A stretch of DNA of 64,000 nucleotides from contig MFJL01000014.1 in the NCBI GenBank assembly GCA_001779195.1, forward strand, positions 9,522 to 73,521, read 5' to 3'. Position numbers and translations under genes: made by a program. The DNA comes from Candidatus Gottesmanbacteria bacterium RIFCSPHIGHO2_02_FULL_39_11. Lineage in GTDB: Bacteria; Patescibacteriota; Microgenomatia; 2-02-FULL-39-11. The notes under the pieces are model-generated. The model saw only the letters and a program-made list of their open reading frames with translations, searched no databases and was not told the DNA's origin. Positions 413 to 19,250 of the stretch are shown one piece after another. Every line of letters begins with the position of its first letter. Position 1 is the first letter of the stretch.

Positions 413-1516
413 TTATTTATTGTGCCGGCTTATGTTTAGCATTATACCAGCGGCACTCATGGAGATAAGTAGATGAGATCCCCCGTATGACACAAAGGGA
501 AGAGGAACTCCAGTTAAAGGCAAAAGAGCAACCATTGCACCTAAGTTGATAAAAATCTGCAAACCAAAATAACTTAATATTCCACATGAAAGAAGAAAGC
601 TGAACCGATCCTGTGTTTTTCTCACAATTAAAAACATCCTGTGCAAAAAAAATAGATAAAAAATTACAACCGTCGTTGTTCCGATAAATCCCAGTTCTTC
701 TCCGATAATGGCAAAAATAGAATCTGTGGTTGCCTCTGGCAAAAACTGATATTTTTGTCGGGAAGCTCCCAATCCCATTCCCCAAAAACCACCGGATCCA
801 AATGAAATTAAAATCTGTCTCAGATGGTAAGATTTGCCAAGCGGATCCTGGTTAGGATTTAAAAAGGTCATCATACGGTTGACCCGGTATGGAGAAATAA
901 CCGCAAGAAGAGACAAAACTGCAATAAGTATCGGCAGGAACATAGCAAATTGACGAACCGGTGCTCCGGAAACAAAATATAAGATAACAAACAAGAGACA
1001 CAATATAATTGCAGTCCCTAAATCCGGCTGTAAAACAACTAGCCCTACGATAACTCCCAAAAGAAGCAAAAAAGCTCTGAGTCTTTCCCGTTCTTTGAAA
1101 GAAAACCAGGCCGATAAGTAAATAATAAGTGCAAGTTTGGCAAGTTCAGAAGGCTGGAAACTAAAACTACCAAATCCGATCCACCGGTGTGCTCCCATTG
1201 TTTTTATTCCGATTCCTGGAATAAAAACAGCAATAAGGGTGAGGATCGCACCGACTAAAATAGGAATTGCCAATCGGTAATAGACTTTGTATGAAACCAG
1301 AGAAATTGCAAGCATGGAAAAAATTCCCAGGAAAAACCATACAGATTGCTCTTTTACGTAATGATACTTATCGGCAAAATCGCGGAATGCGGAAACATTT
1401 GAAGAATCAAAAATCATGAGGAGTCCGAAAAGTGAAAAAAGAATGACCGTTGCAAAAAGCCAAAAGTCCATTTTTCCTGTTGCTGTTGATTTTTTCAGAG
1501 AATGGGCGTTTCTCAT
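413..1516 (-). CDS. ftsW: SEDS-family peptidoglycan glycosyltransferase FtsW/RodA
   Basis: 367 aa and polytopic. It carries the SEDS motifs QPSELAKL, PDLGTA, LPEATTDSIF and GVPLPFVSYGGS, and sits in dcw context between mraY and murG. Confidence 0.9.
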   Translation of the reverse strand: MRNAHSLKKSTATGKMDFWLFATVILFSLFGLLMIFDSSNVSAFRDFADKYHYVKEQSVWFFLGIFSMLAISLVSYKVYYRLAIPILVGAILTLIAVFIPGIGIKTMGAHRWIGFGSFSFQPSELAKLALIIYLSAWFSFKERERLRAFLLLLGVIVGLVVLQPDLGTAIILCLLFVILYFVSGAPVRQFAMFLPILIAVLSLLAVISPYRVNRMMTFLNPNQDPLGKSYHLRQILISFGSGGFWGMGLGASRQKYQFLPEATTDSIFAIIGEELGFIGTTTVVIFYLFFLHRMFLIVRKTQDRFSFLLSCGILSYFGLQIFINLGAMVALLPLTGVPLPFVSYGGSHLLISMSAAGIMLNISRHNK

Positions 1517-1528
1517 AAGGAGAATTTA

Positions 1529-2566
1529 TTATTTCATAAAAGCAAACCACAAACCCAGTGTTGCTAAAAGAACTGAAAAAATCCAGGCACGAAAAACAAT
1601 AGTCGATTCATTCCAGCCCTTTTTTTGCCATAAGAGATGAAAGGGAGCAACTTCAAATAATTTTTTACCCCGATATTTTTTACTTAACAGCTGAAGAAGA
1701 GAAGTAAGAATTTCTAAAACATACAATCCTCCGACAACCAAAAGAGAAAAGGGTTTTCCCAAAAGAAGTCCGATAACCGCAAATGTTGCCCCGAAAGAGA
1801 GTGCTCCTACATCTCCCAAAAAAATACGGGCAGGGAAAATATTAAAATAAAGAAATGCAATAACGCCTCCGAGCCATATTGAAATAAAAACGGAAAGAGG
1901 GGTATCTAAAATCGAATGGGAGATTACCCAGAAAGCAGTCAGGGCAATCATAAGGATTCCGCATGAAAGACCATCTAGGCCATCTGATATATTAAACGCA
2001 TTGGCAAACGAGAGAATAACAAAAGAGGCAAATAAAATATATAGAATACCGACATCCCAAACGCCTATAAAGGGTACATTGATAATATGGATATGAAGCT
2101 CAGAATAGAGATAATACGCTGCTATAAGAGAGAGAAAAATCTGTAAGATGAGTTTATGCCGGAGACGAAGTCCGTAAAACTTCTGGTTTCCGGCAAAAAA
2201 AACTTTTCTCACATCATCATACAACCCTATTGCTCCAAATGAAACAAACGTAAACAGGAGTACTTTTATCTCGCTTCCCACATTGTTATATACGGAATGG
2301 ATGGGTATCCAAAAATAATAAAGAATCGGGAATGAAATAAAGAAAAGCAATGTTGTAACTGCAATTACAAGCATCCCGCCTCCTAAGGGGGTTCCTGATT
2401 TCTTCCCGTGAAATGAGTCAAAAATCGGAGTAGGCACATCAAATGCGTCTGTTGTTTTCTGATTTTGCCTCTGAAGTTTGGCATGATACAGGATGTTAAT
2501 AAAAGGGATAAGAGCAATAAAATGTACGATAAAAGAAAGTAATAAAAAACCTATTATAAATGCCAT
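1529..2566 (-). CDS. mraY: Phospho-N-acetylmuramoyl-pentapeptide transferase MraY
   Basis: 345 aa membrane protein with the motifs LYDDVRK, ANAFNISDGLDGL and IFLGDVGALSFG, in dcw context. The HHH motif is degenerate (PFHLLWQ). Confidence 0.85.
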   Translation of the reverse strand: MAFIIGFLLLSFIVHFIALIPFINILYHAKLQRQNQKTTDAFDVPTPIFDSFHGKKSGTPLGGGMLVIAVTTLLFFISFPILYYFWIPIHSVYNNVGSEIKVLLFTFVSFGAIGLYDDVRKVFFAGNQKFYGLRLRHKLILQIFLSLIAAYYLYSELHIHIINVPFIGVWDVGILYILFASFVILSFANAFNISDGLDGLSCGILMIALTAFWVISHSILDTPLSVFISIWLGGVIAFLYFNIFPARIFLGDVGALSFGATFAVIGLLLGKPFSLLVVGGLYVLEILTSLLQLLSKKYRGKKLFEVAPFHLLWQKKGWNESTIVFRAWIFSVLLATLGLWFAFMK

Positions 2567-2577
2567 AAATTTAAATT

Positions 2578-2949
2578 CTAGAACCCAAAAAGTACTAATA
2601 GTCTGGGAAGAAAAATAATAAGAGAAACCCCGATTGCTCCAAATGCAGTTGTAAGCATCATACCTGCCGCGACATCTTTAGCAATTTTTGCCTCTTTCCT
2701 CCACTCAATAGTAATTAAATCCGTCATTTCTTCAATTGAGGTATTTACCATCTCCGTCCCCAGTCCAAATGCAATTGTCATTATAACAACGGCAAACTCC
2801 CCTCTTGAGATTTTTAAAATAATACTTAGAACTAAGGCGACACAGGCAAGGAGCACATGTATCCTAAAATTCTGCTGTGTTTTTAATGCCCAAAACAATC
2901 CGGCAAAGGCGTTTTTAAAAGATAAGTGGTGTTTTTTGAGAAAATGCAT
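2578..2949 (-). CDS. Diacylglycerol/undecaprenol kinase (DgkA family)
   Basis: 123 aa with 3 TM segments and the DgkA-like motif EMVNTSIEEM. Confidence 0.65.
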   Translation of the reverse strand: MHFLKKHHLSFKNAFAGLFWALKTQQNFRIHVLLACVALVLSIILKISRGEFAVVIMTIAFGLGTEMVNTSIEEMTDLITIEWRKEAKIAKDVAAGMMLTTAFGAIGVSLIIFLPRLLVLFGF

Positions 2950-2976
2950 ACGTCTATTATACCTCTTTTCCCGGGT

Positions 2977-3966
2977 TTAATACCTTTTTTTGATTTTGCG
3001 AAATGACTCAACTGCAAGGGTAATAAGATACTTACGATTTACTGGAAGATCGTGAGCATGCATATATTCCAGAGAGTGTCCTCCGAATCCTTTCTTAAAC
3101 AAAGACAGCCCATACCAGGGATGAGTTTTTCGGTCCGTAGGAGCAATTCCCCAAAAATTATATATTTTTTTATTTCTTTTTCTTGCTTCTTTTATGGCTT
3201 CCCACTGAAGTAAGTAATTGACGGGAATTTTCTGGTCCACACTGGCGCTATGATGATAAACAGCCTGATTATTATAGAAAAGTATAAGAGCAGCAGACAA
3301 TAATTTTTTATCAAAATACCCCTTAAATAACAGAATCTGATCTTTTTTTAGAAATTCCATAAACTCATCGACAATCCCGGTATGCTTAGTAAATCCATGT
3401 CTGCTTGCGGTCATCTCATACAGAGTCATAAAATCTTCTAAATCTTTGGGATTTTTGCTTTTTTCGATTTTAACTCCTATTTTTTCCGCCTGACGGATAA
3501 GATACCGGGTGGTTTTGCGCATGCCGGAAAGCAGTTCTTCCTCGGATTTATCCACATTCAAAACCCAGCAATATTCCCCGTCCATGGCATGAATGGGTGA
3601 GGGTCTGAAATGGAAATCCTTAAACAGACGCTCGTTATATTCGGTGTTTGGAATAAGGGGACTCATTCTTATAAAATTTGCACGTTCTTTTTTGGCTAGT
3701 GAAATAAAATAATCAACCCAAATGGATAACGATTCCCTATCCCAGGATGAGAGTATGGGTCCGTGACGGATATGAAGAAATCTTCCGCGCCTGGCATCAA
3801 TTTTTGCGACCTGTGCAACAGAGGTTAATTTATCTTCGGAAAAATTTCCCAGTCTCCATGCTTTTTCGACGATCTCCCCCCAACTCCAGGATTGAAAAAG
3901 GGCAACAGGCGAGTGCTCCCGTATATATGCTTCCCAGTCATTTTCTGAACGTACTTCTTTAATCAT
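2977..3966 (-). CDS. FemAB/FemX-family peptidyltransferase (peptidoglycan interpeptide bridge formation)
   Basis: 329 aa. The N-terminus FQSWSWGEI and overall GNAT-like FemABX architecture match this family. It is embedded in the dcw operon. Confidence 0.6.
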   Translation of the reverse strand: MIKEVRSENDWEAYIREHSPVALFQSWSWGEIVEKAWRLGNFSEDKLTSVAQVAKIDARRGRFLHIRHGPILSSWDRESLSIWVDYFISLAKKERANFIRMSPLIPNTEYNERLFKDFHFRPSPIHAMDGEYCWVLNVDKSEEELLSGMRKTTRYLIRQAEKIGVKIEKSKNPKDLEDFMTLYEMTASRHGFTKHTGIVDEFMEFLKKDQILLFKGYFDKKLLSAALILFYNNQAVYHHSASVDQKIPVNYLLQWEAIKEARKRNKKIYNFWGIAPTDRKTHPWYGLSLFKKGFGGHSLEYMHAHDLPVNRKYLITLAVESFRKIKKRY

Positions 3967-5201
3967 ATTTCTTTCTTTAAGAGACTGATTACTCTCTCTA
4001 TATCATTTGGGGTCAGCCGAAAATAGGTAGGTAAATTTACTATGTGTCTTGAAACTGACTCAGCCCTAGGACAGCTTCCCAATTTATATCCGATACTCGT
4101 ATAGTCAACACCCGCCGGATCTACAACATGATGATACCAATTTCCAAGTACTATTTTCTTTTTCTTTGCACTGAGGATGACATTTGAAGCTTTATCCGTG
4201 ATAACGGGATACCTTAGATAAACTGCTCCAAAAACAGGTTTTAACTGATTTATTTTTGTAATGTCTTTTAAAGACTGGTAATACCTATTCGCTATTTCCA
4301 CTCTTTTATCATTGATCTGTTTTAATTTACTCAGCTGATACAGAAGAAGAGCCGCTAAAGCATTGGGATATTTTAAGGGGAAAACGCTTGGTCTTCCTCC
4401 TGTATATTCTTCTTTATAAACAGGCTTTGACAGCAAATGCAGTTTCAGCAAGATAAATAAAATAACTTTTCCAATAATGAAAGGATACAACGGCAATATG
4501 ATTGAAAAAAAAATGGGATGAACTATCTGTTGAAAAATCCAACCGTAGGAAGGAAAAGATAAGTCTTCATGCATCTTCTTTAAATTTTTTATCTCCGTTT
4601 TAAAATTTGGCTTAATAATTGCAAGTCCTCCAAAAACAGATGAAACAATTTTATCTCTGCCGAAACTGAAGAAGGCTGCGTCTCCGAAAGTACCCAATTT
4701 TCTATTTTCAACCGCAGCTCCCAGACAGTGGGCGCAGTCTTCAATAAGAATTAGATTATGTTTTTTAGCAATAACTGAAATTTCTTTAATTTGTGCAGGA
4801 ATTCCGAATGTATGTTGGACTATGATTGCACGGGTTTCAGATGTAATTTTTTTTTCAAGGTCTGTTGGGTCTACATTAAGTGTGCGATCAATATCAACAA
4901 ATACCGGCTTTACCCCGCACCAAAGAATAGCATCGCAAACTGCAACACAGGTGAATGCCTGAAGAATTACTTCATCGCCCTCTTTAATTTCGAATGATTT
5001 TAAAAGTGCATATAAAGCTGATCTTCCAGAGTTAAAAGATACCGAAGCACCTGCTGCATACTCATGTTTAAACCACGACTCGACTTTGCCGATTGCTGAG
5101 CCGTCTTTCCAGGACCACGGTGAAAACATTACTCTAACTGCTTCCTGTACGTCCTTTTTATCCGTATTGGGAGATAATGATATTGCAATTGGGTTATTCA
5201 T
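3963..5201 (-). CDS. DegT/DnrJ/EryC1/StrS-family PLP-dependent sugar aminotransferase with an inserted hydrophobic segment
   Basis: 412 aa. The PLP-lysine motif is FSFGRDK and the C-domain motif is KYPNALAALLLYQL. A roughly 45-aa hydrophobic insertion (IVHPIFFSIILPLYPFIIGKVILFILLKLHLL) lies between them. Confidence 0.7.
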   Translation of the reverse strand: MNNPIAISLSPNTDKKDVQEAVRVMFSPWSWKDGSAIGKVESWFKHEYAAGASVSFNSGRSALYALLKSFEIKEGDEVILQAFTCVAVCDAILWCGVKPVFVDIDRTLNVDPTDLEKKITSETRAIIVQHTFGIPAQIKEISVIAKKHNLILIEDCAHCLGAAVENRKLGTFGDAAFFSFGRDKIVSSVFGGLAIIKPNFKTEIKNLKKMHEDLSFPSYGWIFQQIVHPIFFSIILPLYPFIIGKVILFILLKLHLLSKPVYKEEYTGGRPSVFPLKYPNALAALLLYQLSKLKQINDKRVEIANRYYQSLKDITKINQLKPVFGAVYLRYPVITDKASNVILSAKKKKIVLGNWYHHVVDPAGVDYTSIGYKLGSCPRAESVSRHIVNLPTYFRLTPNDIERVISLLKKEI

Positions 5202-6805
5202 TTAATTTTTTTCAATAATAATTCCATCTGTCTTTTGGCTTCCCGGCCGCTGAAATAAATCATAATATCCTCTGTGTCATCAAACGGATAGAAATCCAAT
5301 TGTTTTTCATTTCTTAATATATATATTTTATCTTTTTTAATCCTTAAGAATTCTTCCGAATAATTTGAGTTTGTCAGAAAAATACGGTCACATGTTTTTT
5401 CTGCCTCTTTGCTGATTTCTTTATGAATAAATTTTCCCTCTTTATTTAATTCAATAAGGGGACTAAAAACAAACCATTTTTTCCCGTGAAATTGAGATAA
5501 GTATTTTAAGCCGGTTAATACTCCATCCGGATTTGAATTATAAGTATCATCAACTATATGTACTTTACCAAACTTTTTAAGCTTCATCCGATTATCAGGG
5601 AGCGATAAATTTGAAATACCCTGTGCAATATCAGTTAGACTTAATCCTAATTCTGCTGCAACGGAGGCGGATCCTGAGATATTTTGAATAAACTGCTCTC
5701 CGCCAAATGTTGTCACACAGGGAACACATTTCCCTTTCCAACACATTTCAAAAGATAAAGATTCTAATCCTGATTTAATATCTTTTATATCAACACTATT
5801 TTCTTTATTCTGAAGAGAATACCCTCCGTACCAATACTTTTTAATATCTTTCCTGTCCCTACTGACCCACTTGCCAATCTCAGTTAAAGGCTTGCTGCTA
5901 CTGTTTAGAAAAGCCATTCCATTTTGTTTAAGGCATATGAGCAATTCATACTTAGCTCTCATGGTATTTTCAATGGAGCCAAAGAGCTCAATATGCTCTT
6001 CGTTAATTCCGGTTAATACTCCGATTTGAGGATGAATCAAATTACAGAGAGTTTTTATCTCTCCTCTTTTATACGCTCCCATCTCGGCGATAAAAATTTG
6101 AATGTCGGGTGTAAGTTTTCTTAAAATCGTGTTGGCAATTCCGATTTCCGTGTTGTTTGTGCCTTCTGTCTTAAGAACACGGTATTTTTGAGACACGATA
6201 GTTGCTAAAAATTCCTTTGTAGTTGTCTTTCCAAAGCTTCCTGTAATTCCAATAACAACTAAGTTTGGAAAATTTTTAATTTTTTTATGAGCTTTATATA
6301 CGGTGTACTTTACATAGAGGAGACTTGGAATGGATGTAATTAATACAAGGAAACCAGAAAGAATAAATAAAAGATGGTCTAATAAAAATAGGAAAGAGAA
6401 AAAAAAGAAAAAAGATAATGACAATCCAACGAAAATAATTAGTAATCCAAAAATTAAGGTTAAGCTTCGAAAAGTAAATTTAGGTCTTTTAAAATTTTTA
6501 AATCCAAAAAATAAATTGACAACTATTATGAATTGTGTCAACAAGAAAAATAATATGGTTAAAGAAGGTAGATATAAAGGAGAAAAGAAAAATAAAATAA
6601 ATACTATCCATTTAAGAATAACGAAAGGATTTGCTAAAAATCTTTTTCCTTCTTCAGTATGAATGAAAGATACAATCCTGTCCCATCTGTATTCTTTCCT
6701 CTGCCATATATAAACGTTAAAAAGAATTAAGCGAATAAGATCGATGATGATAAGTGCATAAAAAATAGGGACAGAAATAGACACCAAGGTAAGGAAAAAA
6801 TCCAT
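5198..6805 (-). CDS. murF: UDP-MurNAc-tripeptide--D-Ala-D-Ala ligase MurF with an atypical N-terminal multi-TM domain
   Basis: 535 aa. The Mur ligase P-loop GITGSFGKTTTKE and the MurF C-terminal motif DDTYNSNPDG are present. The first ~180 aa are 4-5 hydrophobic helices, including an SFFFFFSFLF run. Confidence 0.85.
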   Translation of the reverse strand: MDFFLTLVSISVPIFYALIIIDLIRLILFNVYIWQRKEYRWDRIVSFIHTEEGKRFLANPFVILKWIVFILFFFSPLYLPSLTILFFLLTQFIIVVNLFFGFKNFKRPKFTFRSLTLIFGLLIIFVGLSLSFFFFFSFLFLLDHLLFILSGFLVLITSIPSLLYVKYTVYKAHKKIKNFPNLVVIGITGSFGKTTTKEFLATIVSQKYRVLKTEGTNNTEIGIANTILRKLTPDIQIFIAEMGAYKRGEIKTLCNLIHPQIGVLTGINEEHIELFGSIENTMRAKYELLICLKQNGMAFLNSSSKPLTEIGKWVSRDRKDIKKYWYGGYSLQNKENSVDIKDIKSGLESLSFEMCWKGKCVPCVTTFGGEQFIQNISGSASVAAELGLSLTDIAQGISNLSLPDNRMKLKKFGKVHIVDDTYNSNPDGVLTGLKYLSQFHGKKWFVFSPLIELNKEGKFIHKEISKEAEKTCDRIFLTNSNYSEEFLRIKKDKIYILRNEKQLDFYPFDDTEDIMIYFSGREAKRQMELLLKKIK

Positions 6806-6808
6806 ATG

Positions 6809-7525
6809 TTAAATAAATTTTTCTACTAATTTGTAAAATTCCTCAGCATTATTAAAAGGAATTCCGTGAGTTCCGTTTGAAATAACTTCAATATGAGAAT
6901 TAATAATTGTTTTTTTCATTTTTCTAGCAATAGAGACTGAAACCATAGAGTCGTCTTCTCCCCAAATCAAAAGTGTAGGGACTTTAATTTTTTTCATAAA
7001 AGGCTCTAAATCCTCCCGTATAACGGATTGAAACGTTTTTTTAAGATTCCCGTCAACTTTTAGATAATCTACGGATCCGCTTAATCGGTATAGTATTTTT
7101 TTAGAAATGGATGAAAAGATGTTTAAGATAGGAAAAGAGAAAATTAGTTTTCCGATTTTACTTAATATTAAGAACAGGTTCCGTTTAAAAGAATTGACCG
7201 GGACAAATCCGGGAGTTCCGGTTAGAACTAAGACAGACAGCCAATCCAGATCATTCCCGGCAAGAAGAATTCCCACTCTCCCTCCGAATGAATGCCCGAT
7301 AAGAACTGCTTTTTTGATTTTTTTCTCCCGGATAAAATTTTCTACATCAAGAGCGTAATCAGCCAAGCTCATCGGTCTATCTAACGGTTTATCCGGTTCA
7401 AATCCAGCAAAACCAAAAACATATGCCAGGTAACCTGCATAGTTAAAACGTTCTTTAAGATCAGTGTATCTGTTGGAACTAACTCTCCAGCCCGGAAGAA
7501 TAATAACACTTGGAAGTTTATCCAT
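6809..7525 (-). CDS. Alpha/beta-fold hydrolase (esterase/lipase-like)
   Basis: 238 aa with the nucleophile elbow GHSFGG. Confidence 0.6.
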   Translation of the reverse strand: MDKLPSVIILPGWRVSSNRYTDLKERFNYAGYLAYVFGFAGFEPDKPLDRPMSLADYALDVENFIREKKIKKAVLIGHSFGGRVGILLAGNDLDWLSVLVLTGTPGFVPVNSFKRNLFLILSKIGKLIFSFPILNIFSSISKKILYRLSGSVDYLKVDGNLKKTFQSVIREDLEPFMKKIKVPTLLIWGEDDSMVSVSIARKMKKTIINSHIEVISNGTHGIPFNNAEEFYKLVEKFI

Positions 7526-7527
7526 AA

Positions 7528-9294
7528 TTATTTAACAGTTACAGACTTTGCAAGGTTTCGGGGCATATCAGGATCAACATTTTTTTCAAGAGCCAAATAA
7601 TATCCCAGAAGCTGACCGATAATAACTGAGGGTATAACAGATGCAACTGACGCATCTGTATAGGGAAGATGGATATCAAAAATATCATGTTTCTGAGGTG
7701 ATATTCCGATAATTTTTCCTCCCCGTGCTTTTAACTCCATAGCCCCGGCCAAATTAGATCCGTGTGTTTCATCCAGCGGTACAAAAGAGATACAAGGAGT
7801 GTCTTTTTCAATAAGAGCAATTACTCCGTGTTTAAGTTCTCCCGCGGCAAATCCTTCCGCATGGATATAAGACGCTTCTTTTATCTTAAGAGCAGTTTCC
7901 AGTGCAATCGGATAGGAAAGTCCCCGGCCGATAACGTAAATATGTTCTTTTGCTGAAAGTGTTTTTGCCAATCGGCTTATAATTTTAAGGTTCTTAGTAG
8001 TTAAAATTTCCTTTGTTGAATCCCGAGCAAGACGAAGATATTTTCTTCCAACTTCAATATTTCCTGAAAGATCATAGGCAATAAGGATAAGGTGTGCCAG
8101 TTTTGCCGTAAATGCTTTAGTTGATACAACGGCCTTTTCAATCCCTGCCGATAAAAGAATAGAGACATCAGACTCCCGGTTAAGAGTAGATCCCAATACA
8201 TTTACCAAGGATGCAATTCTTGCTTTCTTTTCTTTTGCCTTTTTGACGGATTCAATTACGTCGACAGTTTCCCCGGATTGAGAAAGAGCAACCACTAAGC
8301 TTTTATCCGTCAAAAAGTCTGCGAGAAATCCAAATTCGCTTCCTACTGTAAAATTTACATGGTATTTAGCAATTTTGGAAAATAAATAGGTTCCTGCAAG
8401 TGCTGCGTATGCGGCCGTCCCGCATCCTACAAAATAAGTTCCGAAAGATTTTTTAATCTCTTCAGAGAGTACATGAATCTCGCTGTCCTTTTTTTGGATA
8501 ATCCTCTCTAAAACATCAACCTGGTCATGAATTTCCTTTATCATGAAATGAGGATACATTCCTTTAGATACAAGATCCGGTTTCCAGTCAAGTTGTGTAT
8601 ATTGAATACTTTTTTTACTCAAAGAACCATCATAGACACTAACGGATTTATCATCAACCAAAATATAGTCTTCATCTTCCATAAAATATACATCCTGGGT
8701 ATAGGGAAGGACTGCATGAGCATCAGAGGCTAAATAGTTTCCGTCCTTTCCTTTACCAACCACAAGAGGAGAACCGTTTTTAACCGCTGCAAATTTCTTT
8801 GTCTTTGCATCCATCACTATAATGGCATTGAGTCCTTCAAAACGGGAAAATGATTTATGTAAAGCTTCCAATAATGAATCGGAGTTTTTATAGTATTCCT
8901 CCGTCAAATGGAGAGCAACTTCAGAGTCTGTCTCTGATAAAAATGTATGCCCTTTTTCTATGAGTTCTTTCTTAATTTCAGAATAATTTTCTATGATTCC
9001 GTTATGGATTAAGGCAAGAGTGCAATCGCGAGAAAGATGAGGATGAGCATTAGCGAGTGTTACTCCTCCATGGGTTGCCCACCTGGTGTGTCCGAAGGCA
9101 CTATTTGCAGGAGGTAACTGAATTCCTTTCGCATCTGCTATTTTTCCTGTATTTTTTACAACCTCTATTTTATTTTCTTTGATCCATGCAATTCCCCAGG
9201 AATCATATCCTCTATATTCAAGTGTTTTTAACCCTTCTAAAACCATGTCAGGAGCGTTTTCTTTTTTGCCTATGTATCCGAATATTCCGCACAT
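7528..9294 (-). CDS. glmS: Glutamine--fructose-6-phosphate aminotransferase GlmS
   Basis: 588 aa. It has the N-terminal MCGIFGYIG amidotransferase nucleophile, two SIS domains and a C-terminal KSVTVK. Confidence 0.95.
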   Translation of the reverse strand: MCGIFGYIGKKENAPDMVLEGLKTLEYRGYDSWGIAWIKENKIEVVKNTGKIADAKGIQLPPANSAFGHTRWATHGGVTLANAHPHLSRDCTLALIHNGIIENYSEIKKELIEKGHTFLSETDSEVALHLTEEYYKNSDSLLEALHKSFSRFEGLNAIIVMDAKTKKFAAVKNGSPLVVGKGKDGNYLASDAHAVLPYTQDVYFMEDEDYILVDDKSVSVYDGSLSKKSIQYTQLDWKPDLVSKGMYPHFMIKEIHDQVDVLERIIQKKDSEIHVLSEEIKKSFGTYFVGCGTAAYAALAGTYLFSKIAKYHVNFTVGSEFGFLADFLTDKSLVVALSQSGETVDVIESVKKAKEKKARIASLVNVLGSTLNRESDVSILLSAGIEKAVVSTKAFTAKLAHLILIAYDLSGNIEVGRKYLRLARDSTKEILTTKNLKIISRLAKTLSAKEHIYVIGRGLSYPIALETALKIKEASYIHAEGFAAGELKHGVIALIEKDTPCISFVPLDETHGSNLAGAMELKARGGKIIGISPQKHDIFDIHLPYTDASVASVIPSVIIGQLLGYYLALEKNVDPDMPRNLAKSVTVK

Positions 9295-9297
9295 TTT

Positions 9298-10587
9298 TTA
9301 TTTTTTAGAATGTTTATTAGTAACTAACTTAAAGTTTATTTCCGATTTATAAAAGCTGTTATCCGGCACATCGGACTCCACAATTGCGCCTGAGGAAATA
9401 AACGAATTTTTTCCTATTTTTATCCCCGGCATAAGAGCGGCATGTACTCCGACTTTGCTCATCTGCCCTATAATAGATCCCAACTTTACTTTGCCGGTGT
9501 CCAATTTTTGTTTATTGACAGCAGAAGAAACTGACTTTTGGTCCAGTCTAAAATTAGCTGTTGTTGCCATAGCTCCCATACTGACATGATCTGAAATAAC
9601 ACTGTCTCCGACATAGTTATTATGAAAATAACAATTATTCCCGACAACACTTCTTGCCACTTCGCTTGCAAATCCAACAACACTTCCCTCTCCAATAATT
9701 GATTCACGAATTAGAGTATTATTTCCGACAATACAATTTTTCCCTATATACGTAGGACCAATAATAACTGCGTGATCTAAAACTCGTGAACCACTTTCAA
9801 TAATTACCGGACCTCGAATCGTTGCTGACTTTGCAATTTCGCGAGCTTTAATAGTTTGATTGGTAATTTTACTTAAAAAATAAGAGGAAAGAGTTAAAAC
9901 ATCCCATGGATATTTTACATGTCCCCAAAATCCTGTGTAGGAAAGAAAGGATATGTTAGCTTTTTTCCCGATCAAAATCCCAATTGCTTTTTCATATATA
10001 TCATCATTTTTAGATTCTGTGTTTTGCAAAATTTTCAAAAAATCAGACGTGTCTTTAAAATAATCAAAGATAAGACGCACGATATTGCTTCCTCTTTTTT
10101 CTCTTTCAGGTTTTTCAATAATCGAAACGACTTTATCATTTAGAACTTTAAGATACCCTCCCGGAAAATAGTCATTCAGATGTATTCCGGTAAGCATTCC
10201 ATCCTGTACTTTCGGCAAATAATTAACAAAGTCAGAAACTAGCGTGTCTTCAAAAACATCCGACGGTCCAACAATTAAAACCGGATTCCTTTCAATGTAT
10301 TTCTTTGCGGAAAGTACTGCCCCTGCCATGCCCCTCCGGTCTTCCTGCATTACCAGCGTAATTACAACACCGGGAAATTCAGATTTTAACAATTCAAATA
10401 ATGACTTGTTTCGTTCTGATACTACTACTATGATATTTTTAAATCCAAACCGTACTAACTGGGAAAGTGCATAATACGCAAGCGGCTTTCCCAAAAAAAT
10501 AAGAGAATGTTTATCCGAAAGCGGCCACAGGCGAGTAGAATCCCCTCCTGCTAAAAGTAAAACGGTAGGTAATGTATTCATGACCAT
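9298..10587 (-). CDS. glmU: Bifunctional sugar-1-phosphate nucleotidyltransferase / left-handed beta-helix acetyltransferase (GlmU-like)
   Basis: 429 aa. The N-terminal LLAGGDSTRLWPL nucleotidyltransferase motif and C-terminal hexapeptide repeats are present. It sits between glmS and murA. Confidence 0.7.
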   Translation of the reverse strand: MVMNTLPTVLLLAGGDSTRLWPLSDKHSLIFLGKPLAYYALSQLVRFGFKNIIVVVSERNKSLFELLKSEFPGVVITLVMQEDRRGMAGAVLSAKKYIERNPVLIVGPSDVFEDTLVSDFVNYLPKVQDGMLTGIHLNDYFPGGYLKVLNDKVVSIIEKPEREKRGSNIVRLIFDYFKDTSDFLKILQNTESKNDDIYEKAIGILIGKKANISFLSYTGFWGHVKYPWDVLTLSSYFLSKITNQTIKAREIAKSATIRGPVIIESGSRVLDHAVIIGPTYIGKNCIVGNNTLIRESIIGEGSVVGFASEVARSVVGNNCYFHNNYVGDSVISDHVSMGAMATTANFRLDQKSVSSAVNKQKLDTGKVKLGSIIGQMSKVGVHAALMPGIKIGKNSFISSGAIVESDVPDNSFYKSEINFKLVTNKHSKK

Positions 10588-10590
10588 ATT

Positions 10591-11925
10591 TTACTCCTTT
10601 TTTCTGACAATTTTAGCTCCTAAACTCTGAAGTCTTCCCTCCAGATTTTCATATCCGCGGTCGATATGATCGATCCCATAGATAACACTCTCTCCCTGAG
10701 CTGTTAGTGCGGCAAGAACCAGAGTTGCTCCGGCGCGAAGATCGGAAACTTCCAAAACAGCATTGTGAAGTTTAGCAATACCTTTAACTTCGATAGCCTG
10801 ATGGTAATCTTTTCTTTTATCAGACCAGTTAAAATTATAAACCAGGGATGGGTTTGAAATTTTGGGAGAAAAAAAGTGAATATCCGCTCCCATTTTACGA
10901 AGCTCCTCAACATAAGAAAATCTATTTTCATACACAGTTTCATGAATGGTTGAAACTCCCCCGCAATAATTGGCAAGTATTGCCCATGGAGCCTGCCAAT
11001 CTGTCATAAAAGCGGGATATGCCCCGGTTGTAATATGAGTTGCTTTATACGGATATTTTGAAAAAAATCTGATTTTGTCTTTTTCAACTTCCTGCCAGGA
11101 AGCTCCGATTGCAGTTAATGCGTTTAAAAATGTGGTGAGATATTTTTTTTGAGCCCCGACAATCCTCACATCCCCTCCGGTTGATAGTGCAGCAATTGCG
11201 AATGTGACCACCTCATTCCGATCCGGCATAATTGAAAAATCAGCGCCCTGTAGTTCCGAAACTCCTTCAATCAGGATGGTTTTTTTCGCGGTCCGTTTTA
11301 TATGAGCACCCATCTGATTTAAAAGAGAAATAAGATCATCAATTTCAGGCTCTTCTGCTGCATTTTTTAAAATAGTTTTTCCCTTTGCAAGGACTCCTGC
11401 TAAAATAAGAGTTTCCGTACCGGTATGTGTATTGGATACAAAAGTGTAAGTAGTTCCTTTTAGCCCCCTGGGTGCATCTGCTTCAAAATATCCCTCCCTA
11501 TATGAAATTACCGCCCCCATCGCCTTAAGTCCGTCAATATGCCGGTCGATGGGACGTTTTCCGATGCGGCATCCCCCGGGATTGGGTACCCGCGCATGTC
11601 CCAACCGCGCAAGAAGAGGTCCCAGCACCATACTGGCGGAGCGGTATACCCCTCCAATCTCAAAGGGAACAATAAAATCTCTCATACCGTTTCCTTTTAG
11701 AGTCAACCGGTGAGTATATCTCTCTATGGAAACCTTAACCCCCAGTTTTTCAACGATCCGAGCGGTTCCGTAAACTGAGGAAATAAGGGGAATATTTGAA
11801 ACGGTAATATTTTTTTCAGTTAAAAGGCCACACAAAATAACTTTCATGGCCACATTTTTAGCACCGCTCACACAGACTTCTCCGTGAAGGGGATTTCCTC
11901 CGGTGATTACATATTTGTCCATCAT
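10591..11925 (-). CDS. murA: UDP-N-acetylglucosamine 1-carboxyvinyltransferase MurA
   Basis: 444 aa with GGNPLHGEVCVSGAKNVAMK and the active-site Cys context NPGGCRIGKRPIDRHI. Confidence 0.9.
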   Translation of the reverse strand: MMDKYVITGGNPLHGEVCVSGAKNVAMKVILCGLLTEKNITVSNIPLISSVYGTARIVEKLGVKVSIERYTHRLTLKGNGMRDFIVPFEIGGVYRSASMVLGPLLARLGHARVPNPGGCRIGKRPIDRHIDGLKAMGAVISYREGYFEADAPRGLKGTTYTFVSNTHTGTETLILAGVLAKGKTILKNAAEEPEIDDLISLLNQMGAHIKRTAKKTILIEGVSELQGADFSIMPDRNEVVTFAIAALSTGGDVRIVGAQKKYLTTFLNALTAIGASWQEVEKDKIRFFSKYPYKATHITTGAYPAFMTDWQAPWAILANYCGGVSTIHETVYENRFSYVEELRKMGADIHFFSPKISNPSLVYNFNWSDKRKDYHQAIEVKGIAKLHNAVLEVSDLRAGATLVLAALTAQGESVIYGIDHIDRGYENLEGRLQSLGAKIVRKKE

Positions 11926-11927
11926 AG

Positions 11928-14320: not shown

Positions 14321-14976
14321 ATAAAACCGATAATATTATTAAGGATATTTGGCTGTAATCCCTCCCGCCGGTAAGACCAAAGATTTTTGTTGGTATAGGT
14401 ACATATGGAAAGACAATCAATATTAGACCTGAGTAGTCTTTCATCTTTCATTTGTTTTAATGCAATACTTTCCAGGTTTAAAAACCATTTTCCTCCTCTT
14501 TCTTCTGAAATCTCATTTTTAAGAAATCCCAAGTGGCAAAAAATGGAAACTCTCTCCTGTGGAACATCATAGCAGCATATCCGTATATGAGGGCCGATTG
14601 CGGCATAAATATTTTGGGGGTGAGATCCTATTTTTTTCATCATTTGTATGGTACTCGTTACAATTTTTTTTGATAAGCCTTTCCAGCCCGCATGAACAGC
14701 ACCTGCTATTTTCAGTTTGGGATCATATAAAAATATCGGAATGCAGTCTGCGGTTTTAACACCGCTCCATCCTTTTCCTTTTAAGATAATTCCATCTGTG
14801 CCGTTTAACGGATTCGTTTTTGAGTTCTCTAAAACCACATTTCCTGAATGAATTTGCCTAAGATGGATAAAATTTGATTCGCTTCCTTTAATATTTAATG
14901 AGGAAAGAGATTCTCCTTTTGAGAGAAATGCGTGAAAAAACTCAGGAAATTTCTTAATAAGCTCAGATTGGATCAT
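14317..14976 (-). CDS. pgeF: Peptidoglycan editing factor PgeF / YfiH (DUF152, laccase-domain) family
   Basis: 219 aa with the motifs QIHSGNVV, KTADCIPIF, AAVHAGWKGL and IGPHIRICCYDV. Confidence 0.8.
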   Translation of the reverse strand: MIQSELIKKFPEFFHAFLSKGESLSSLNIKGSESNFIHLRQIHSGNVVLENSKTNPLNGTDGIILKGKGWSGVKTADCIPIFLYDPKLKIAGAVHAGWKGLSKKIVTSTIQMMKKIGSHPQNIYAAIGPHIRICCYDVPQERVSIFCHLGFLKNEISEERGGKWFLNLESIALKQMKDERLLRSNIDCLSICTYTNKNLWSYRREGLQPNILNNIIGFI

Positions 14977-16214
14977 ATTCTTTTTCCCAGCGCTTTTTGA
15001 ACCGTTTTTCTTTCATCCCAGCCGTATTCTTTAGTACCAAAGCACATGGACTTTTCATGTCCCTTTCCGCAGAAAAACACAATATCATCCGGTTTTGCCA
15101 GAGTATTAATGGTAAAATCAATCGCTTCGCTCCTGTCGGGAATTCTGAAAAAATAATTTATTTTTTTCGCACGCCTTCTTATTTTTGCACTTTTGCGCAA
15201 CTCCACCATACCTTTGCATGCGGCACCGTTTGCAATCTGACGGATAATTTCCTTAACATCCTCAGTCCTCGGATCCTCTGCCGTAAAGACAGCAAAATCG
15301 GAATAAGTTGCAGCAATCTCTCCCATCATGGATCTTTTTTCCGTATCCCGAAGACCGGCACACCCAAAAACTACAATAACTTTCCTCTTTGTTATATCCC
15401 GTGCGGTAAGCAAAACTTTTTTAAGCGCATCGGGTTTATGAGCAAAATCAATAACTATTTTAAATCCTCGCCGGTTGGGTACTTCCTCCATCCGTCCGGG
15501 GAGGGTAATAAAATTTTTAATTGCTTTTTCTATTGTTTTTACATCTATGCCGTACACTAAAGATACGGCTGCTCCCGCCAGTGCATTTTCTTCATTAAAC
15601 TCCCCTGGAAAGTTAAGCTTTATTTTTAATGTTGACGGATTTACTGACGCATTTTTGCTTTTTCCGAATGTTACTAACTTACCTTTTACTTTACTCTTAA
15701 GATACTGAAAGTTGCGATCATCATAATTTAGTATACTCACCCGGTTATTTTTCAAAATCTTTTCTTTTGCCTCCCTGTATTTTCCAAAAGTACGGTGATA
15801 ATCCAAATGCTCATGAGTAATATTGGTAATAACTCCTGCGTCAATTGGGATCCCCAAAGTGCGGTACTGATCCAAAGCATGAGAGGTAACTTCTAAAACT
15901 ACATACTCCGTTTGAAATTTGAGCGCTTTTTTCAGAAGTTTTTGCAGATGGTAAGAGGAGGGGGTAGTTACATGCAAACCGGTATCAATCGTTTCACCGT
16001 TAATAACGGCTGAAATGGTAGAAATGAGTGCAACTTTTTTTCCGGCAGATTTAAATATTTCATACACAAGGTGAGCAGTTGTTGTCTTCCCGGATGTCCC
16101 GGTAATTCCGATAATTTTTATCCGTTTAGCAGGAAACCCATACAAAACAACTGCCGCAACCGCCCGTATAAAATGTCCGGCGTTTTTAATTTTTCTTACT
16201 AGATATGATTCCAT
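14973..16214 (-). CDS. murE: UDP-MurNAc-L-Ala-D-Glu--diamino acid ligase MurE (short N-terminal domain)
   Basis: 413 aa. It has GITGTSGKTTT, VTTPSSYHLQKLL...LEVTSHALDQYR, DFAHKPDALKKVL and GCAGLRDTEKR. These are MurE-type signatures, not MurD or MurF. Confidence 0.85.
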   Translation of the reverse strand: MESYLVRKIKNAGHFIRAVAAVVLYGFPAKRIKIIGITGTSGKTTTAHLVYEIFKSAGKKVALISTISAVINGETIDTGLHVTTPSSYHLQKLLKKALKFQTEYVVLEVTSHALDQYRTLGIPIDAGVITNITHEHLDYHRTFGKYREAKEKILKNNRVSILNYDDRNFQYLKSKVKGKLVTFGKSKNASVNPSTLKIKLNFPGEFNEENALAGAAVSLVYGIDVKTIEKAIKNFITLPGRMEEVPNRRGFKIVIDFAHKPDALKKVLLTARDITKRKVIVVFGCAGLRDTEKRSMMGEIAATYSDFAVFTAEDPRTEDVKEIIRQIANGAACKGMVELRKSAKIRRRAKKINYFFRIPDRSEAIDFTINTLAKPDDIVFFCGKGHEKSMCFGTKEYGWDERKTVQKALGKRI

Positions 16215-16266
16215 TTATCTTAGTATTGTACCTGAAAATGCAAAATTAGGCTATTTTGAGGAAAAC

Positions 16267-18290: not shown

Positions 18291-18319
18291 TTTAAATGTA
18301 AAGTGAAAAGCTGTTAGTC

Positions 18320-19222: not shown

Positions 19223-19250
19223 TGTGATTCTAAACCGTTATTAATTTTTA

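What the first reader, a model, noticed from the sequence alone, without database searches (positions are those of the whole stretch)
5198..6805. MurF with its N-terminal substrate-binding domain replaced by a ~180-aa multi-helix membrane domain containing a poly-Phe run
The Mur-ligase core (GITGSFGKTTTKE ... DDTYNSNPDG) starts only at residue ~187. Residues 1-180 form 4-5 strongly hydrophobic helices, including SLSFFFFFSFLFLL, which is encoded by an A/G-rich tract on the plus strand (~6380-6420).

Canonical MurF has a soluble ~90-aa N-domain. A membrane-tethered MurF would place the last cytoplasmic step next to MraY. The homopolymeric coding tract is also a potential slippage site.
Basis: seen in the sequence. 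Interest (0 to 1): 0.6.

Follow-up and report, generated by a model that had tools for sequence, protein, structure and literature searches.

The report
Integral-membrane MurF cell-wall ligase
This cell-wall enzyme (MurF), soluble in textbook bacteria, here has its first domain replaced by a conserved five-helix membrane module, and that form is a real, widespread variant in the ultra-small CPR bacteria and some other phyla rather than an assembly error.

Summary
ORF 5198-6805(-) encodes 535 aa. Residues 1-182 form five transmembrane helices. A MurF-type ligase core follows, with its P-loop at 186-197.

It is not an artefact:
- All 120 listed homologues share the layout.
- A profile of the membrane module finds 1182 representative clusters, N-terminal in all 150 listed; the full-length ones are about 450-570 aa.
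- The form occurs across CPR lineages, in high-GC Anaerolineae contigs, and in Poribacteria-like genomes of 4-6 Mb.

The module is more than an anchor. Q35, Y39, R43, P108 and T111 are conserved across phyla and lie on cytoplasmic loops. It matches no Pfam family and no PDB sequence or fold.

The gene sits in the murF slot. A 5.9-Mb Poribacteria-like genome reads murE, hydrolase, TM-murF, ddl, mraY.

A serine α/β-hydrolase is its near-constant neighbour. DegT-like and FemAB-like genes usually follow in CPR. All three partners also occur fused to it.

Best reading: this is the lineage's true MurF working at the membrane, with the module standing in for domain 1. What the module binds is unknown.

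The poly-Phe run is non-conserved helix filler and shows no sign of a frameshift.

Verdict: new variant of a known kind, interest about 0.65.

The parts
5198..6805 (-). Whole gene: integral-membrane MurF (TM-MurF), 535 aa
   Evidence: ORF listed. Pfam Mur_ligase_M and Mur_ligase_C. Best NCBIfam match is murF, 216 bits. 100% identical to a Candidatus Gottesmanbacteria protein.
6260..6805 (-). N-terminal membrane module, residues 1-182: five TM helices, N-terminus outside, loops 1 and 3 and the linker cytoplasmic
   Evidence: Hydropathy. AF2 helices with domain pLDDT 91.2. Positive-inside counts over 107 homologues: K+R 5.7, 3.6 and 5.7 on the inner segments against 0.3-0.4 on the outer loops. 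No Pfam family. No PDB sequence match. No PDB fold match.
6677..6706 (-). Loop-1 signature W34-Q-R-K-E-Y-R-W-D-R43. The family motif in CPR is WQxKEYRxDR; the core shared across phyla is Q-x3-Y-x3-R.
   Evidence: Q35 and Y39 are invariant, and W34, K37, E38, R40, D42, R43 are at least 90% conserved in 107 sequences. Q, Y and R are kept in the Poribacteria-type and other divergent members.
6467..6484 (-). Loop-3 signature P108-K-F-T111-F-R113 (family P-x-x-T-x-K/R)
   Evidence: P108 is invariant, T111 is 101/107 and K113 is 99/107. P and T are kept across phyla.
6380..6421 (-). Poly-Phe stretch SLSFFFFFSFLFLL (residues 129-142), spanning the end of TM4 and the start of TM5. Contains T6 and T8 runs (A-runs on the plus strand).
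   Evidence: Coordinates and homopolymer runs. Columns 129-142 are not conserved; relatives carry mixed L/F/I/P.
6275..6403 (-). TM5 continuing without a break into the cytoplasmic linker helix (residues 135-177) that leads into the first strand of the ligase domain
   Evidence: DSSP on the AF2 model shows one helix 135-177, then strand 183-188. The linker aligns with the helix that precedes the central domain in T. maritima MurF, residues 72-85. A172 is 104/107.
6215..6250 (-). ATP-binding P-loop G186-ITGSFGKTTTK197
   Evidence: T188, G189, S190, G192, K193 and K197 are invariant in 107 homologues. Aligned to the P-loops of solved MurF structures.
5660..6247 (-). Mur ligase central domain (residues 187-382)
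   Evidence: Pfam PF08245, 2.9e-31. Foldseek best matches are MurF structures 4qf5, 3zl8 and 1gg4.
5360..5590 (-). Mur ligase C-terminal domain (residues 406-482), including DDTYNSNP
   Evidence: Pfam PF02875, 2.8e-07. D419, D420, N423, N425 and P426 are at least 90% conserved.
6809..7525 (-). Partner 1: α/β-fold serine hydrolase immediately upstream, 3 nt from the murF start
   Evidence: Pfam Hydrolase_4 and Abhydrolase_1. Present upstream of TM-murF in 65 of 80 loci and in the Poribacteria-like dcw cluster. Orthologous at 31-42% identity. S79, D192 and H220 are conserved in 60 of 61. Fusions with TM-MurF: P0333, P0334.
3963..5201 (-). Partner 2: DegT/DnrJ/EryC1-type PLP enzyme. Its start overlaps the murF stop (ATGA). 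It carries a hydrophobic insert after the PLP lysine.
   Evidence: Pfam PF01041, 1.2e-62, in two stretches. Downstream of TM-murF in 60 of 80 loci. Fused to TM-MurF in L006 and in P0254-P0263. SFG[RS]DK motif and the insert are conserved.
2977..3966 (-). Partner 3: FemAB-family (aminoacyl-tRNA-dependent) peptidyltransferase, with a 4-nt overlap with the DegT-like gene
   Evidence: Pfam FemAB, 6e-34. Present in 53 of 80 loci. Triple fusion P0261, 1293 aa. Closest solved relatives are S. aureus FemX (Lipid II:glycine glycyltransferase) and Weissella FemX.
2578..2949 (-). DgkA-family small membrane kinase between the FemAB-like gene and mraY
   Evidence: Pfam DAGK_prokar, 7.5e-29.
1529..2566 (-). 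mraY, the membrane enzyme that uses MurF's product
   Evidence: Pfam Glycos_transf_4. NCBIfam mraY, 165 bits.
14973..16214 (-). murE of the same cluster. It also lacks domain 1, with nothing in its place.
   Evidence: 413 aa, only Mur_ligase_M and Mur_ligase_C. Aligns from profile position 89 of NF001126. Only 52 nt separate it from ftsI. L029 shows the same, 398 aa.

Best explanation
The gene encodes the organism's genuine MurF, the ATP-dependent ligase that adds the last two residues (D-Ala-D-Ala) to the peptidoglycan stem peptide. It is built as an integral membrane protein.

**Shown**
- The central and C-terminal ligase domains are intact and specifically MurF-like.
- Canonical domain 1, which in solved MurF and MurE structures holds the UDP end of the substrate, is absent.
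- In its place is a five-helix module: N-terminus outside, ligase inside. Its last helix runs straight into the linker helix of the ligase.
- The module is homologous across CPR lineages, Anaerolineae-type contigs and Poribacteria-like genomes.
- Its conserved polar residues (Q35, Y39, R43, P108, T111, K/R113) sit on the two cytoplasmic loops.
- The gene occupies the murF slot of the dcw cluster.
- It is accompanied by a catalytically intact α/β-hydrolase and, in CPR, by DegT-like and FemAB-like enzymes. All three are sometimes fused to it.

**Inferred**
- The ligase is held rigidly against the inner face of the membrane.
- The conserved cytoplasmic loops lie where domain 1 would be. They therefore substitute for it in holding the MurNAc-diphosphate end of the substrate and/or in docking partner enzymes.
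- The stem peptide would then be finished, and possibly branched or edited, beside MraY.
- The poly-Phe run is only lineage-specific hydrophobic filler in one helix.
For: **MurF identity**
- TIGR01143 scores 216 bits. No model of another Mur ligase (MurC, MurD, MurE) exceeds 58 bits.
- Best PDB sequence hits are all MurF: 3zl8 1.1e-33, 1gg4 2.1e-28.
- Best fold hits are MurF: 4qf5 at E 4.8e-28, TM-score 0.71 on the target.
- The catalytic motifs are invariant in 107 homologues.

**Domain replacement**
- Alignments begin at residue about 171-184.
- No Pfam Mur_ligase N-domain is found.

**Real architecture**
- 119 of 120 homologues have a recognisable P-loop, median position 186 (all but two between 160 and 228), behind a hydrophobic N-terminus.
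- All 80 genome loci look the same.
- The N-domain profile finds 1182 representative clusters. In all of the top 150 the module is at the N-terminus. The shorter hits mostly break off inside the TM module or the ligase domain, as gene fragments would.

**Topology and structure**
- AF2 gives pLDDT 93.4 and pTM 0.92, with a continuous helix 135-177.

**Conservation across phyla:**

**murF slot**
- Window order: mraZ, rsmH, ftsL-like, ftsI, murE, pgeF, murC, murB, murA, glmU, glmS, hydrolase, TM-murF, degT, femAB, dgkA, mraY, ftsW.
- No other MurF-like ORF is in the window.
- Five loci read glmS, TM-murF, mraY, ftsW.
- The 5.9-Mb contig L081 reads rsmH, ftsL, ftsI, murE, hydrolase, TM-murF, ddl, mraY, murD, ftsW, murG, murC, ftsQ, ftsA.

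**Partners:**
Against: - No whole CPR genome could be scanned, so a second, canonical murF elsewhere is not excluded.
- The TIGR01143 score is below NCBI's curated cut-off (216 against 288.6).
- No ddl was found in the window or in any of the 80 CPR loci. The supply of D-Ala-D-Ala in CPR is therefore unverified here.
- The role proposed for the conserved loops rests on position and conservation only. Model coordinates could not be inspected and no ligand or complex was modelled.
- This particular protein departs from the family consensus at several well-conserved positions: N26 to L, H47 to F, Q52 to E, E97 to N.
Confidence: 0.72

Rival explanations
1. Plain membrane tether. The helices only anchor MurF near MraY so that UDP-MurNAc-pentapeptide is handed over locally. 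They play no part in substrate binding or partner docking.
For: - murF lies next to, or close to, mraY in the window and in 25 of 80 loci.
- Most of the module is simply hydrophobic and poorly conserved, the poly-Phe run included.
- MurE of the same genome has lost domain 1 without any replacement. Domain 1 may therefore be dispensable in these lineages.
Against: - One helix would be enough for tethering. Here five helices with fixed topology are kept across phyla.
- Polar residues on the cytoplasmic loops are invariant or nearly so.
- The module is always joined rigidly to the ligase, with the same spacing.
- A dedicated hydrolase partner co-occurs with it even in Poribacteria-like genomes.
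Confidence: 0.15
2. Re-ordered pathway. Having lost the UDP-binding domain, the enzyme works on a lipid-linked acceptor (undecaprenyl-PP-MurNAc-tripeptide, that is, lipid I or II lacking D-Ala-D-Ala). The membrane module holds the polyprenyl-diphosphate end.
For: - Domain 1 is lost in both MurF and MurE of CPR.
- The ligase is pinned to the membrane surface.
- The FemAB-like partner's closest solved relative is S. aureus FemX, which acts on lipid II.
- A DgkA-family lipid kinase lies in the same operon.
- From established knowledge, the Mur-ligase relative MurT also lacks domain 1 and acts on lipid II.
Against: - In the Poribacteria-like cluster MurE is full length with its DSR motif, and the gene order is fully canonical. 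This argues for the ordinary soluble tripeptide substrate there.
- Few conserved residues lie within the membrane.
- No direct evidence of any kind.
- MraY is conserved and ordinary.
Confidence: 0.08
3. Not a true MurF. It is a MurF-derived paralogue that ligates a different amino acid or peptide, perhaps made with the DegT-like and FemAB-like enzymes, onto a muropeptide or another envelope polymer.
For: - The score is below the curated MurF cut-off.
- It is tightly coupled, and sometimes fused, to DegT-like and FemAB-like enzymes.
- In CPR these two genes sit where ddl sits in the Poribacteria-like cluster, and no ddl was seen in 80 CPR loci.
Against: - It is the only MurF-like gene in otherwise complete mur/dcw clusters.
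- In L081 it lies directly beside ddl and mraY.
- The score shortfall is explained by the missing domain 1 and a weakly matched C-terminal end.
- MurF-type motifs are retained.
Confidence: 0.05
4. Assembly or annotation artefact: a small membrane ORF fused to a truncated murF by a frameshift in the homopolymer tract.
For: T6 and T8 runs lie inside the ORF, at 6399-6413.
Against: - The same single ORF occurs in independent assemblies from many studies and phyla.
- Conserved residues lie in frame on both sides of the tract.
- The boundary with the ligase is 45 codons downstream of the tract.
- A one-base shift gives a stop within 8-36 codons.
- No remnant of domain 1 exists anywhere nearby.
Confidence: 0

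Closest known systems
Canonical MurF (UDP-MurNAc-tripeptide:D-Ala-D-Ala ligase; e.g. E. coli 1GG4, A. baumannii 4QF5, T. maritima 3ZL8, P. aeruginosa 4CVK)
   Same: - Central ATP-binding domain and C-terminal domain, P-loop, NN-x-IG, E-x-GA, H-x-E-x-FGS and DDTYN-NP motifs.
- Best sequence and fold matches.
- Position in the dcw cluster between murE and mraY.
   Different: - The soluble N-terminal domain 1 of about 80-100 aa is absent. A five-helix integral-membrane module of about 180 aa with its own conserved motifs replaces it.
- It scores below the curated family cut-off.
- It has a dedicated α/β-hydrolase neighbour.
MurT of the MurT/GatD lipid II amidotransferase (e.g. 6GS2)
   Same: A Mur-ligase fold without a UDP-binding domain 1, working with a partner enzyme on a late, membrane-associated precursor. 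The function is from established knowledge; the fold hit at E about 8e-16 is.
   Different: - MurT is soluble, has a DUF1727-type C-terminal region and pairs with the glutaminase GatD.
- Here the NCBIfam MurT model scores only 15 bits.
- No GatD was seen, and the protein is far closer to MurF.
Known MurF gene fusions: MurE-MurF and MurF-alanine racemase bifunctional proteins
   Same: They show that MurF tolerates covalent coupling to enzymes of neighbouring steps. Both kinds appeared as distant hits (P0346, P0365 and others).
   Different: Those fusions keep domain 1 (PF01225 present) and are soluble (no TM segment before the P-loop in all but two). Here the fusion partner is a membrane module of unknown fold, and in some lineages additionally DegT-like, FemAB-like or hydrolase domains.
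PgsB/CapB poly-γ-glutamate synthetase (recalled from memory, not tested here)
   Same: A Mur-ligase-like amide ligase that is membrane-anchored and works in a membrane complex.
   Different: PgsB has a single N-terminal anchor helix and a different substrate. No PgsB/CapB model appeared among the NCBIfam matches.

Membership tests
MurF (UDP-MurNAc-tripeptide--D-Ala-D-Ala ligase, NCBIfam TIGR01143) | Mur ligase central domain with ATP-binding P-loop | tested here: met
   PF08245 at 187-382, 2.9e-31. GITGSFGKTTTK is invariant in the family.
MurF (UDP-MurNAc-tripeptide--D-Ala-D-Ala ligase, NCBIfam TIGR01143) | Mur ligase C-terminal domain | tested here: met
   PF02875 at 406-482, 31.9 bits against a cut-off of 28.4.
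MurF (UDP-MurNAc-tripeptide--D-Ala-D-Ala ligase, NCBIfam TIGR01143) | Closer to MurF than to MurC, MurD, MurE, Mpl, MurT, FolC or CphA | tested here: met
   murF 216 bits against at most 58 bits for other Mur ligases. The top seven PDB sequence hits and the top ten fold hits are MurF.
MurF (UDP-MurNAc-tripeptide--D-Ala-D-Ala ligase, NCBIfam TIGR01143) | N-terminal domain 1 (UDP-binding, DSR-type motif) | tested here: not met
   Alignments start at profile position 66 and at PDB residues 72-116. No PF01225. A membrane module is present instead.
MurF (UDP-MurNAc-tripeptide--D-Ala-D-Ala ligase, NCBIfam TIGR01143) | Whole-protein score above the curated cut-off | tested here: not met
   216.2 bits against a cut-off of 288.6.
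MurF (UDP-MurNAc-tripeptide--D-Ala-D-Ala ligase, NCBIfam TIGR01143) | Sits in the murF position of the dcw/mur cluster as the only MurF-like gene there | tested here: met
   Window cluster. glmS, TM-murF, mraY, ftsW in five loci. murE, hydrolase, TM-murF, ddl, mraY, murD in L081.
MurF (UDP-MurNAc-tripeptide--D-Ala-D-Ala ligase, NCBIfam TIGR01143) | Catalyses addition of D-Ala-D-Ala to UDP-MurNAc-tripeptide | not testable with these tools
   Needs an enzyme assay or genetic complementation.
MurT-type lipid II-modifying Mur ligase | Specific sequence similarity to MurT and a GatD partner | tested here: not met
   NF045635 MurT scores 15 bits, E 0.0089. None of the window ORFs scanned against Pfam or NCBIfam matched a GatD-type protein; the glmS amidotransferase domain is a different family.
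Any described membrane-domain family (Pfam-A, PDB) | Sequence or fold match of residues 1-182 | tested here: not met
   No recurrent Pfam hit among 26 members at E up to 1. No PDB sequence hit at E up to 10 with the profile. Best Foldseek PDB hit E 5.4, with TM-score normalised to the query at most 0.26.

The most novel reading that the evidence does not exclude
In CPR bacteria the last stem-peptide steps are not cytoplasmic. The membrane module of MurF binds the polyprenyl-diphosphate end of a lipid-linked MurNAc-peptide. TM-MurF, the α/β-hydrolase, the DegT-like enzyme and the FemAB-like enzyme together form one membrane-bound complex that finishes the stem peptide beside MraY. That would be a re-ordered peptidoglycan pathway in a large part of bacterial diversity.
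Probability: 0.1. Interest if true: 0.9.

Novelty: new variant of a known kind. Interest (0 to 1): 0.65.

Why it matters
- **Textbook expectation.** MurC to MurF are treated as soluble cytoplasmic enzymes, and the pathway is taken to reach the membrane only at MraY. Here the last of them is an integral membrane protein across the CPR superphylum and in at least two other lineages.
- **An undescribed module.** It has no match in Pfam or the PDB and has replaced the domain that normally holds the nucleotide end of the substrate.
- **Partner enzymes.** It comes with a conserved hydrolase partner, and it is fused in some lineages to a PLP enzyme and to a tRNA-dependent peptidyltransferase. This points to an organised membrane assembly for finishing cell-wall precursors.
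- **Testable questions.** Where is the stem peptide completed in these organisms? What does the hydrolase do? Saccharibacteria that can be cultured on host bacteria appear to carry the same gene set.
- **Practical uses.** The module gives a clean sequence marker (Q-x3-Y-x3-R ... P-x2-T) for annotating these MurF proteins. Curated models currently score them below threshold.

Tried and rejected
**Searches that found nothing**
- Rfam scan of the whole window: no RNA family.
- Pfam on 26 N-domain sequences at E up to 1: only scattered single hits.
- PDB profile search with the N-domain at E up to 10: none.
- Foldseek of the N-domain model against PDB: nothing meaningful.
- tblastn with a Poribacteria-type Ddl against the window and 80 CPR loci: no ddl. 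This says nothing about the rest of those genomes.
- Nine literature searches and two papers read. None describes a membrane-embedded MurF. The TM7x paper's 'Mur ligase' mention concerns host genes. The supplement of Méheust et al. 2019 lists a FemAB family as CPR-enriched but lumps MurE and MurF into one non-membrane family.

**Ideas considered and dropped**
- Frameshift or fusion artefact.
- Programmed slippage at the poly-Phe tract: the run is not conserved.
- MurT, PgsB or cyanophycin-synthetase identity: scores are far lower than for MurF.
- Restriction to CPR: Poribacteria-like and high-GC Anaerolineae-type members exist.

**Uncertain labels**
- Three contigs labelled Nitrospirota have about 39% GC and the CPR-type cassette. 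They may be mis-binned, so they are not counted as a separate phylum.


Full report
**1. What is in the sequence**

The minus-strand ORF 5198..6805 encodes a 535-aa protein. It is 100% identical to a hypothetical protein of a Candidatus Gottesmanbacteria (Microgenomates, CPR) genome from the Rifle aquifer.

Pfam finds only a Mur ligase central domain (187-382) and a C-terminal domain (406-482). Among NCBIfam models murF is by far the best: 216 bits, against at most 58 for models of the other Mur ligases (MurC, MurD, MurE). The alignment covers only profile positions 66-368 of 418, and the score stays below the curated cut-off of 288.6.

Against solved structures the protein aligns from residue 171-184 onward. 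The matching region starts at residue 72 of T. maritima MurF and residue 102 of E. coli MurF, that is, just after their domain 1.

Residues 1-182 are hydrophobic. Phe makes up 17.6% there, against 5.1% in the rest of the protein. The run SLSFFFFFSFLFLL is residues 129-142, nt 6380-6421, and its longest homopolymer is T8 at 6399-6406.

**2. Not an artefact**

- All 120 listed homologues (34-60% identity, mostly 520-560 aa) share the layout. 119 have a recognisable P-loop, at a median position of 186, behind a hydrophobic N-terminus.
- A motif scan of one genome per species found 206 relatives. In all 80 loci fetched, the signature lies about 25-35 residues (a few further in) from the start of a single ORF, usually of 500-590 aa. 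The P-loop is at about 181-210 wherever it is recognisable.
- A profile of the N-terminal 182 residues alone was run against 1.84 billion representative proteins. It found 1182 clusters at E up to 0.001 and 746 at E up to 1e-10.
- In all of the top 150 the module sits at the N-terminus. Ninety of these are at least 450 aa long. Most of the shorter ones break off inside the TM module or the ligase domain, as gene fragments would.
- Family-invariant residues lie in frame on both sides of the poly-Phe tract (P108, T111 and K113 before it; D143, P160 and A172 after it). A one-base slip there gives a stop within 8-36 codons.

**3. Anatomy of the membrane module**

AlphaFold2 with 107 homologues gives a confident model: pLDDT 93.4 and pTM 0.92. 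Its helices are 2-36, 41-48, 51-57, 60-73, 80-104, 112-131 and 135-177. The last helix runs without a break from the membrane into the linker that precedes the first strand of the ligase domain. The isolated module folds the same way, with pLDDT 91.2.

Across the family the charge distribution sets the topology:

| Segment | Mean K+R |
|---|---|
| Loop 1 | 5.7 |
| Loop 3 | 3.6 |
| Linker | 5.7 |
| The two short loops on the other side | 0.3-0.4 |

This puts the N-terminus outside and the ligase inside, with five membrane helices.

Conservation is concentrated on the cytoplasmic loops:
- W34-Q35-x-K37-E38-Y39-R40-x-D42-R43, with Q35 and Y39 invariant
- G53 and K65
- P108-x-x-T111-x-K113
- D143, P160 and A172

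The poly-Phe run falls in columns where relatives carry mixed L/F/I/P, so it is filler. This particular protein departs from the consensus at N26, H47, Q52 and E97.

The module matches nothing described:
- no Pfam family
- no PDB sequence at E up to 10 with the profile
- no PDB fold (best Foldseek E 5.4)

**4. Distribution beyond this genome**

The 80 loci carry labels from across the CPR: Gottesman-, Levy-, Woese-, Magasanik-, Andersen-, Peregrini-, Peri-, Gracili-, Sacchari- and Dojkabacteria, and Paceibacter.

Contigs labelled Anaerolineae have 51-64% GC and a matching amino-acid composition, so they are probably genuine non-CPR carriers. Contigs labelled Nitrospirota have about 39% GC and the CPR cassette, and may be mis-binned.

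A further group comes from contigs of 4-6 Mb or more. Its named members at 53-69% identity are Candidatus Poribacteria. These carry a variant signature (LQLDGYKTxRY ... KKPLVYTARAKR). An alignment across all groups keeps Q35, Y39, R43, P108, T111 and A172. The module is therefore one homologous unit spread over several phyla.

**5. Is it the real MurF?**

In the window the gene lies in a long mur/dcw operon. The order is mraZ, rsmH, ftsL-like, ftsI, murE, pgeF, murC, murB, murA, glmU-like, glmS, α/β-hydrolase, TM-murF, DegT-like, FemAB-like, dgkA-like, mraY, ftsW. No other MurF-like ORF exists in the 64 kb.

Five CPR loci read glmS, TM-murF, mraY, ftsW.

The clearest case is L081, from a 5.9-Mb contig. 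It reads rsmH, ftsL, ftsI, murE (full length), α/β-hydrolase, TM-murF, ddl, mraY, murD, ftsW, murG, murC, ftsQ, ftsA. This is a textbook dcw cluster in which TM-MurF fills the murF slot, next to the enzyme that makes its D-Ala-D-Ala substrate.

The catalytic motifs are conserved: the P-loop, NN-x-IG, E-x-GA, H-x-E-x-FGS and DDTYN-NP. MurF structures are the best fold matches.

I could not scan a whole CPR genome for a second murF. That is the main gap.

**6. Partners**

A tblastn survey of the 80 loci gave these counts:

| Gene | Position relative to TM-murF | Loci (of 80) |
|---|---|---|
| α/β-hydrolase | immediately upstream | 65 |
| DegT-like | downstream | 60 |
| FemAB-like | downstream | 53 |
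| mraY | usually further downstream | 25 |

- **Hydrolase.** It is orthologous between CPR and the Poribacteria-like genome, at 31-42% identity. Its Ser79, Asp192 and His220 residues are conserved in 60 of 61 orthologues.
- **Gene overlaps.** In the window the genes overlap or abut: ATGA at murF/degT, a 4-nt overlap at degT/femAB, and a 3-nt gap between the hydrolase and murF.
- **Natural fusions (L006).**
  - TM-MurF plus DegT-like: L006, 1063-codon open frame (1051 aa from the first Met), and P0254 to P0259, P0262 and P0263. P0254 alone stands for 31 sequences.
  - TM-MurF plus DegT-like plus FemAB-like: P0261, 1293 aa.
  - TM-MurF plus α/β-hydrolase: P0333 and P0334.
- **DegT-like enzyme.** It keeps its PLP lysine motif (SFG[RS]DK). 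About 50 residues later it has a conserved hydrophobic insert (...LPLYN-x4-GK...).
- **FemAB-like enzyme.** Its nearest solved relatives are S. aureus FemX (Lipid II:glycine glycyltransferase) and Weissella FemX.
- **Position of ddl.** In CPR the DegT-like and FemAB-like pair sits where ddl sits in L081. No ddl was found in the CPR loci or the window. This is suggestive, but uninformative about the rest of those genomes.

**7. How it most likely works**

*Shown:*
- a MurF-type ligase
- loss of domain 1
- a conserved five-helix module with cytoplasmic polar signatures
- rigid helical coupling to the ligase
- the murF genomic slot
- conserved and sometimes fused partners

*Inferred:*
- TM5 continues into the helix that in canonical MurF links domain 1 to the central domain. 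The membrane surface and loops 1 and 3 should therefore occupy the space where domain 1 normally lies.
- The loops therefore probably take over holding the MurNAc-diphosphate end of the substrate and/or dock the partners. The stem peptide would then be completed at the membrane beside MraY.
- I put about 0.72 on 'true MurF in a membrane-embedded form whose module has a functional role'. The specific role of the loops is much less certain.

*Rivals:*
- a plain tether (0.15)
- action on a lipid-linked acceptor (0.08)
- a non-MurF paralogue (0.05)
- an artefact (about 0)

**8. Known or new**

Databases already hold thousands of these proteins, named MurF, 'Mur ligase family protein' or hypothetical. 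The sequences are therefore not new.

I found no paper describing a membrane-embedded MurF, its module or its partner set. Pfam has no model for the module.

I class it as a new variant of a known kind.

Noticed in passing
window 14973-16214 (-); also L029 3919-5115: MurE of this cluster is only 413 aa and lacks domain 1 entirely. It aligns from profile position 89, and only 52 nt separate it from ftsI. A second CPR genome has a 398-aa MurE of the same kind. The Poribacteria-like genome has a full-length 498-aa MurE with the DSR motif.
   Followed up: partly
window 3963-5201 (-); 47 DegT-like ORFs in loci L001-L080: The DegT-like PLP enzyme next to murF has a conserved hydrophobic insert (...LPLYN-x4-GK...) about 50 residues after the PLP lysine. 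This splits the Pfam match in two. It might be a membrane-associating hairpin. The hydropathy peak reaches 1.6 or more in 18 of 47.
   Followed up: partly
L006 40-3192; proteins P0254-P0263, P0261, P0333, P0334: Natural fusion proteins join TM-MurF to the DegT-like enzyme, to DegT-like plus FemAB-like, or to the α/β-hydrolase. These link the four genes functionally.
   Followed up: partly
window 2578-2949 (-): A 123-aa DgkA-family membrane kinase (Pfam DAGK_prokar, 7.5e-29) lies between the FemAB-like gene and mraY. In Gram-positive bacteria this family includes undecaprenol kinase, which would fit a lipid-carrier supply role.
   Followed up: partly
window 413-19643 (-): One unusually complete cell-wall operon: mraZ, rsmH, ftsL-like, ftsI, murE, pgeF, murC, murB, murA, glmU-like, glmS, hydrolase, murF, degT, femAB, dgkA, mraY, ftsW. 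The genes are almost all abutting or overlapping. murD, murG and ddl are not in the window.
   Followed up: partly
window 9298-10587 (-): The GlmU-like gene matches the archaeal-type bifunctional sugar-1-phosphate nucleotidylyltransferase/acetyltransferase (TIGR03992, 243 bits) much better than bacterial GlmU (90 bits).
   Followed up: no
window 22420-63870: About 40 kb of surface-polysaccharide genes: many GT1, GT2 and GT4 transferases, GT10 and GT11 fucosyltransferase-like genes, a flippase, DUF2079, PMT_2, and a 1047-aa protein with a Wzy_C domain. Six ORFs of 466-561 aa have no Pfam match at E up to 1e-4 or 1e-5: 41127-42530, 44923-46485, 47287-48732, 49529-50929, 50935-52383 and 58829-60514.
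   Followed up: no
L027, L052, L074; many loci labelled 'uncultured Gammaproteobacteria ... binchicken': Contigs labelled Nitrospirota, and many labelled Gammaproteobacteria, carry the CPR-type cassette (the Nitrospirota-labelled ones at about 39% GC; median for all 80 loci 38.5%). The organism labels look like mis-binning or placeholder names.
   Followed up: partly
L081 9026-13097: In a 5.9-Mb Poribacteria-like genome the hydrolase and TM-murF pair is followed directly by ddl. In CPR loci the DegT-like and FemAB-like genes occupy that position, and no ddl was detected in any of the 80 CPR loci.
   Followed up: partly
window 1-64000: No Rfam family reaches its gathering score anywhere in the 64 kb. 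Nearly all genes are on the minus strand, and cumulative GC skew falls steadily.
   Followed up: no
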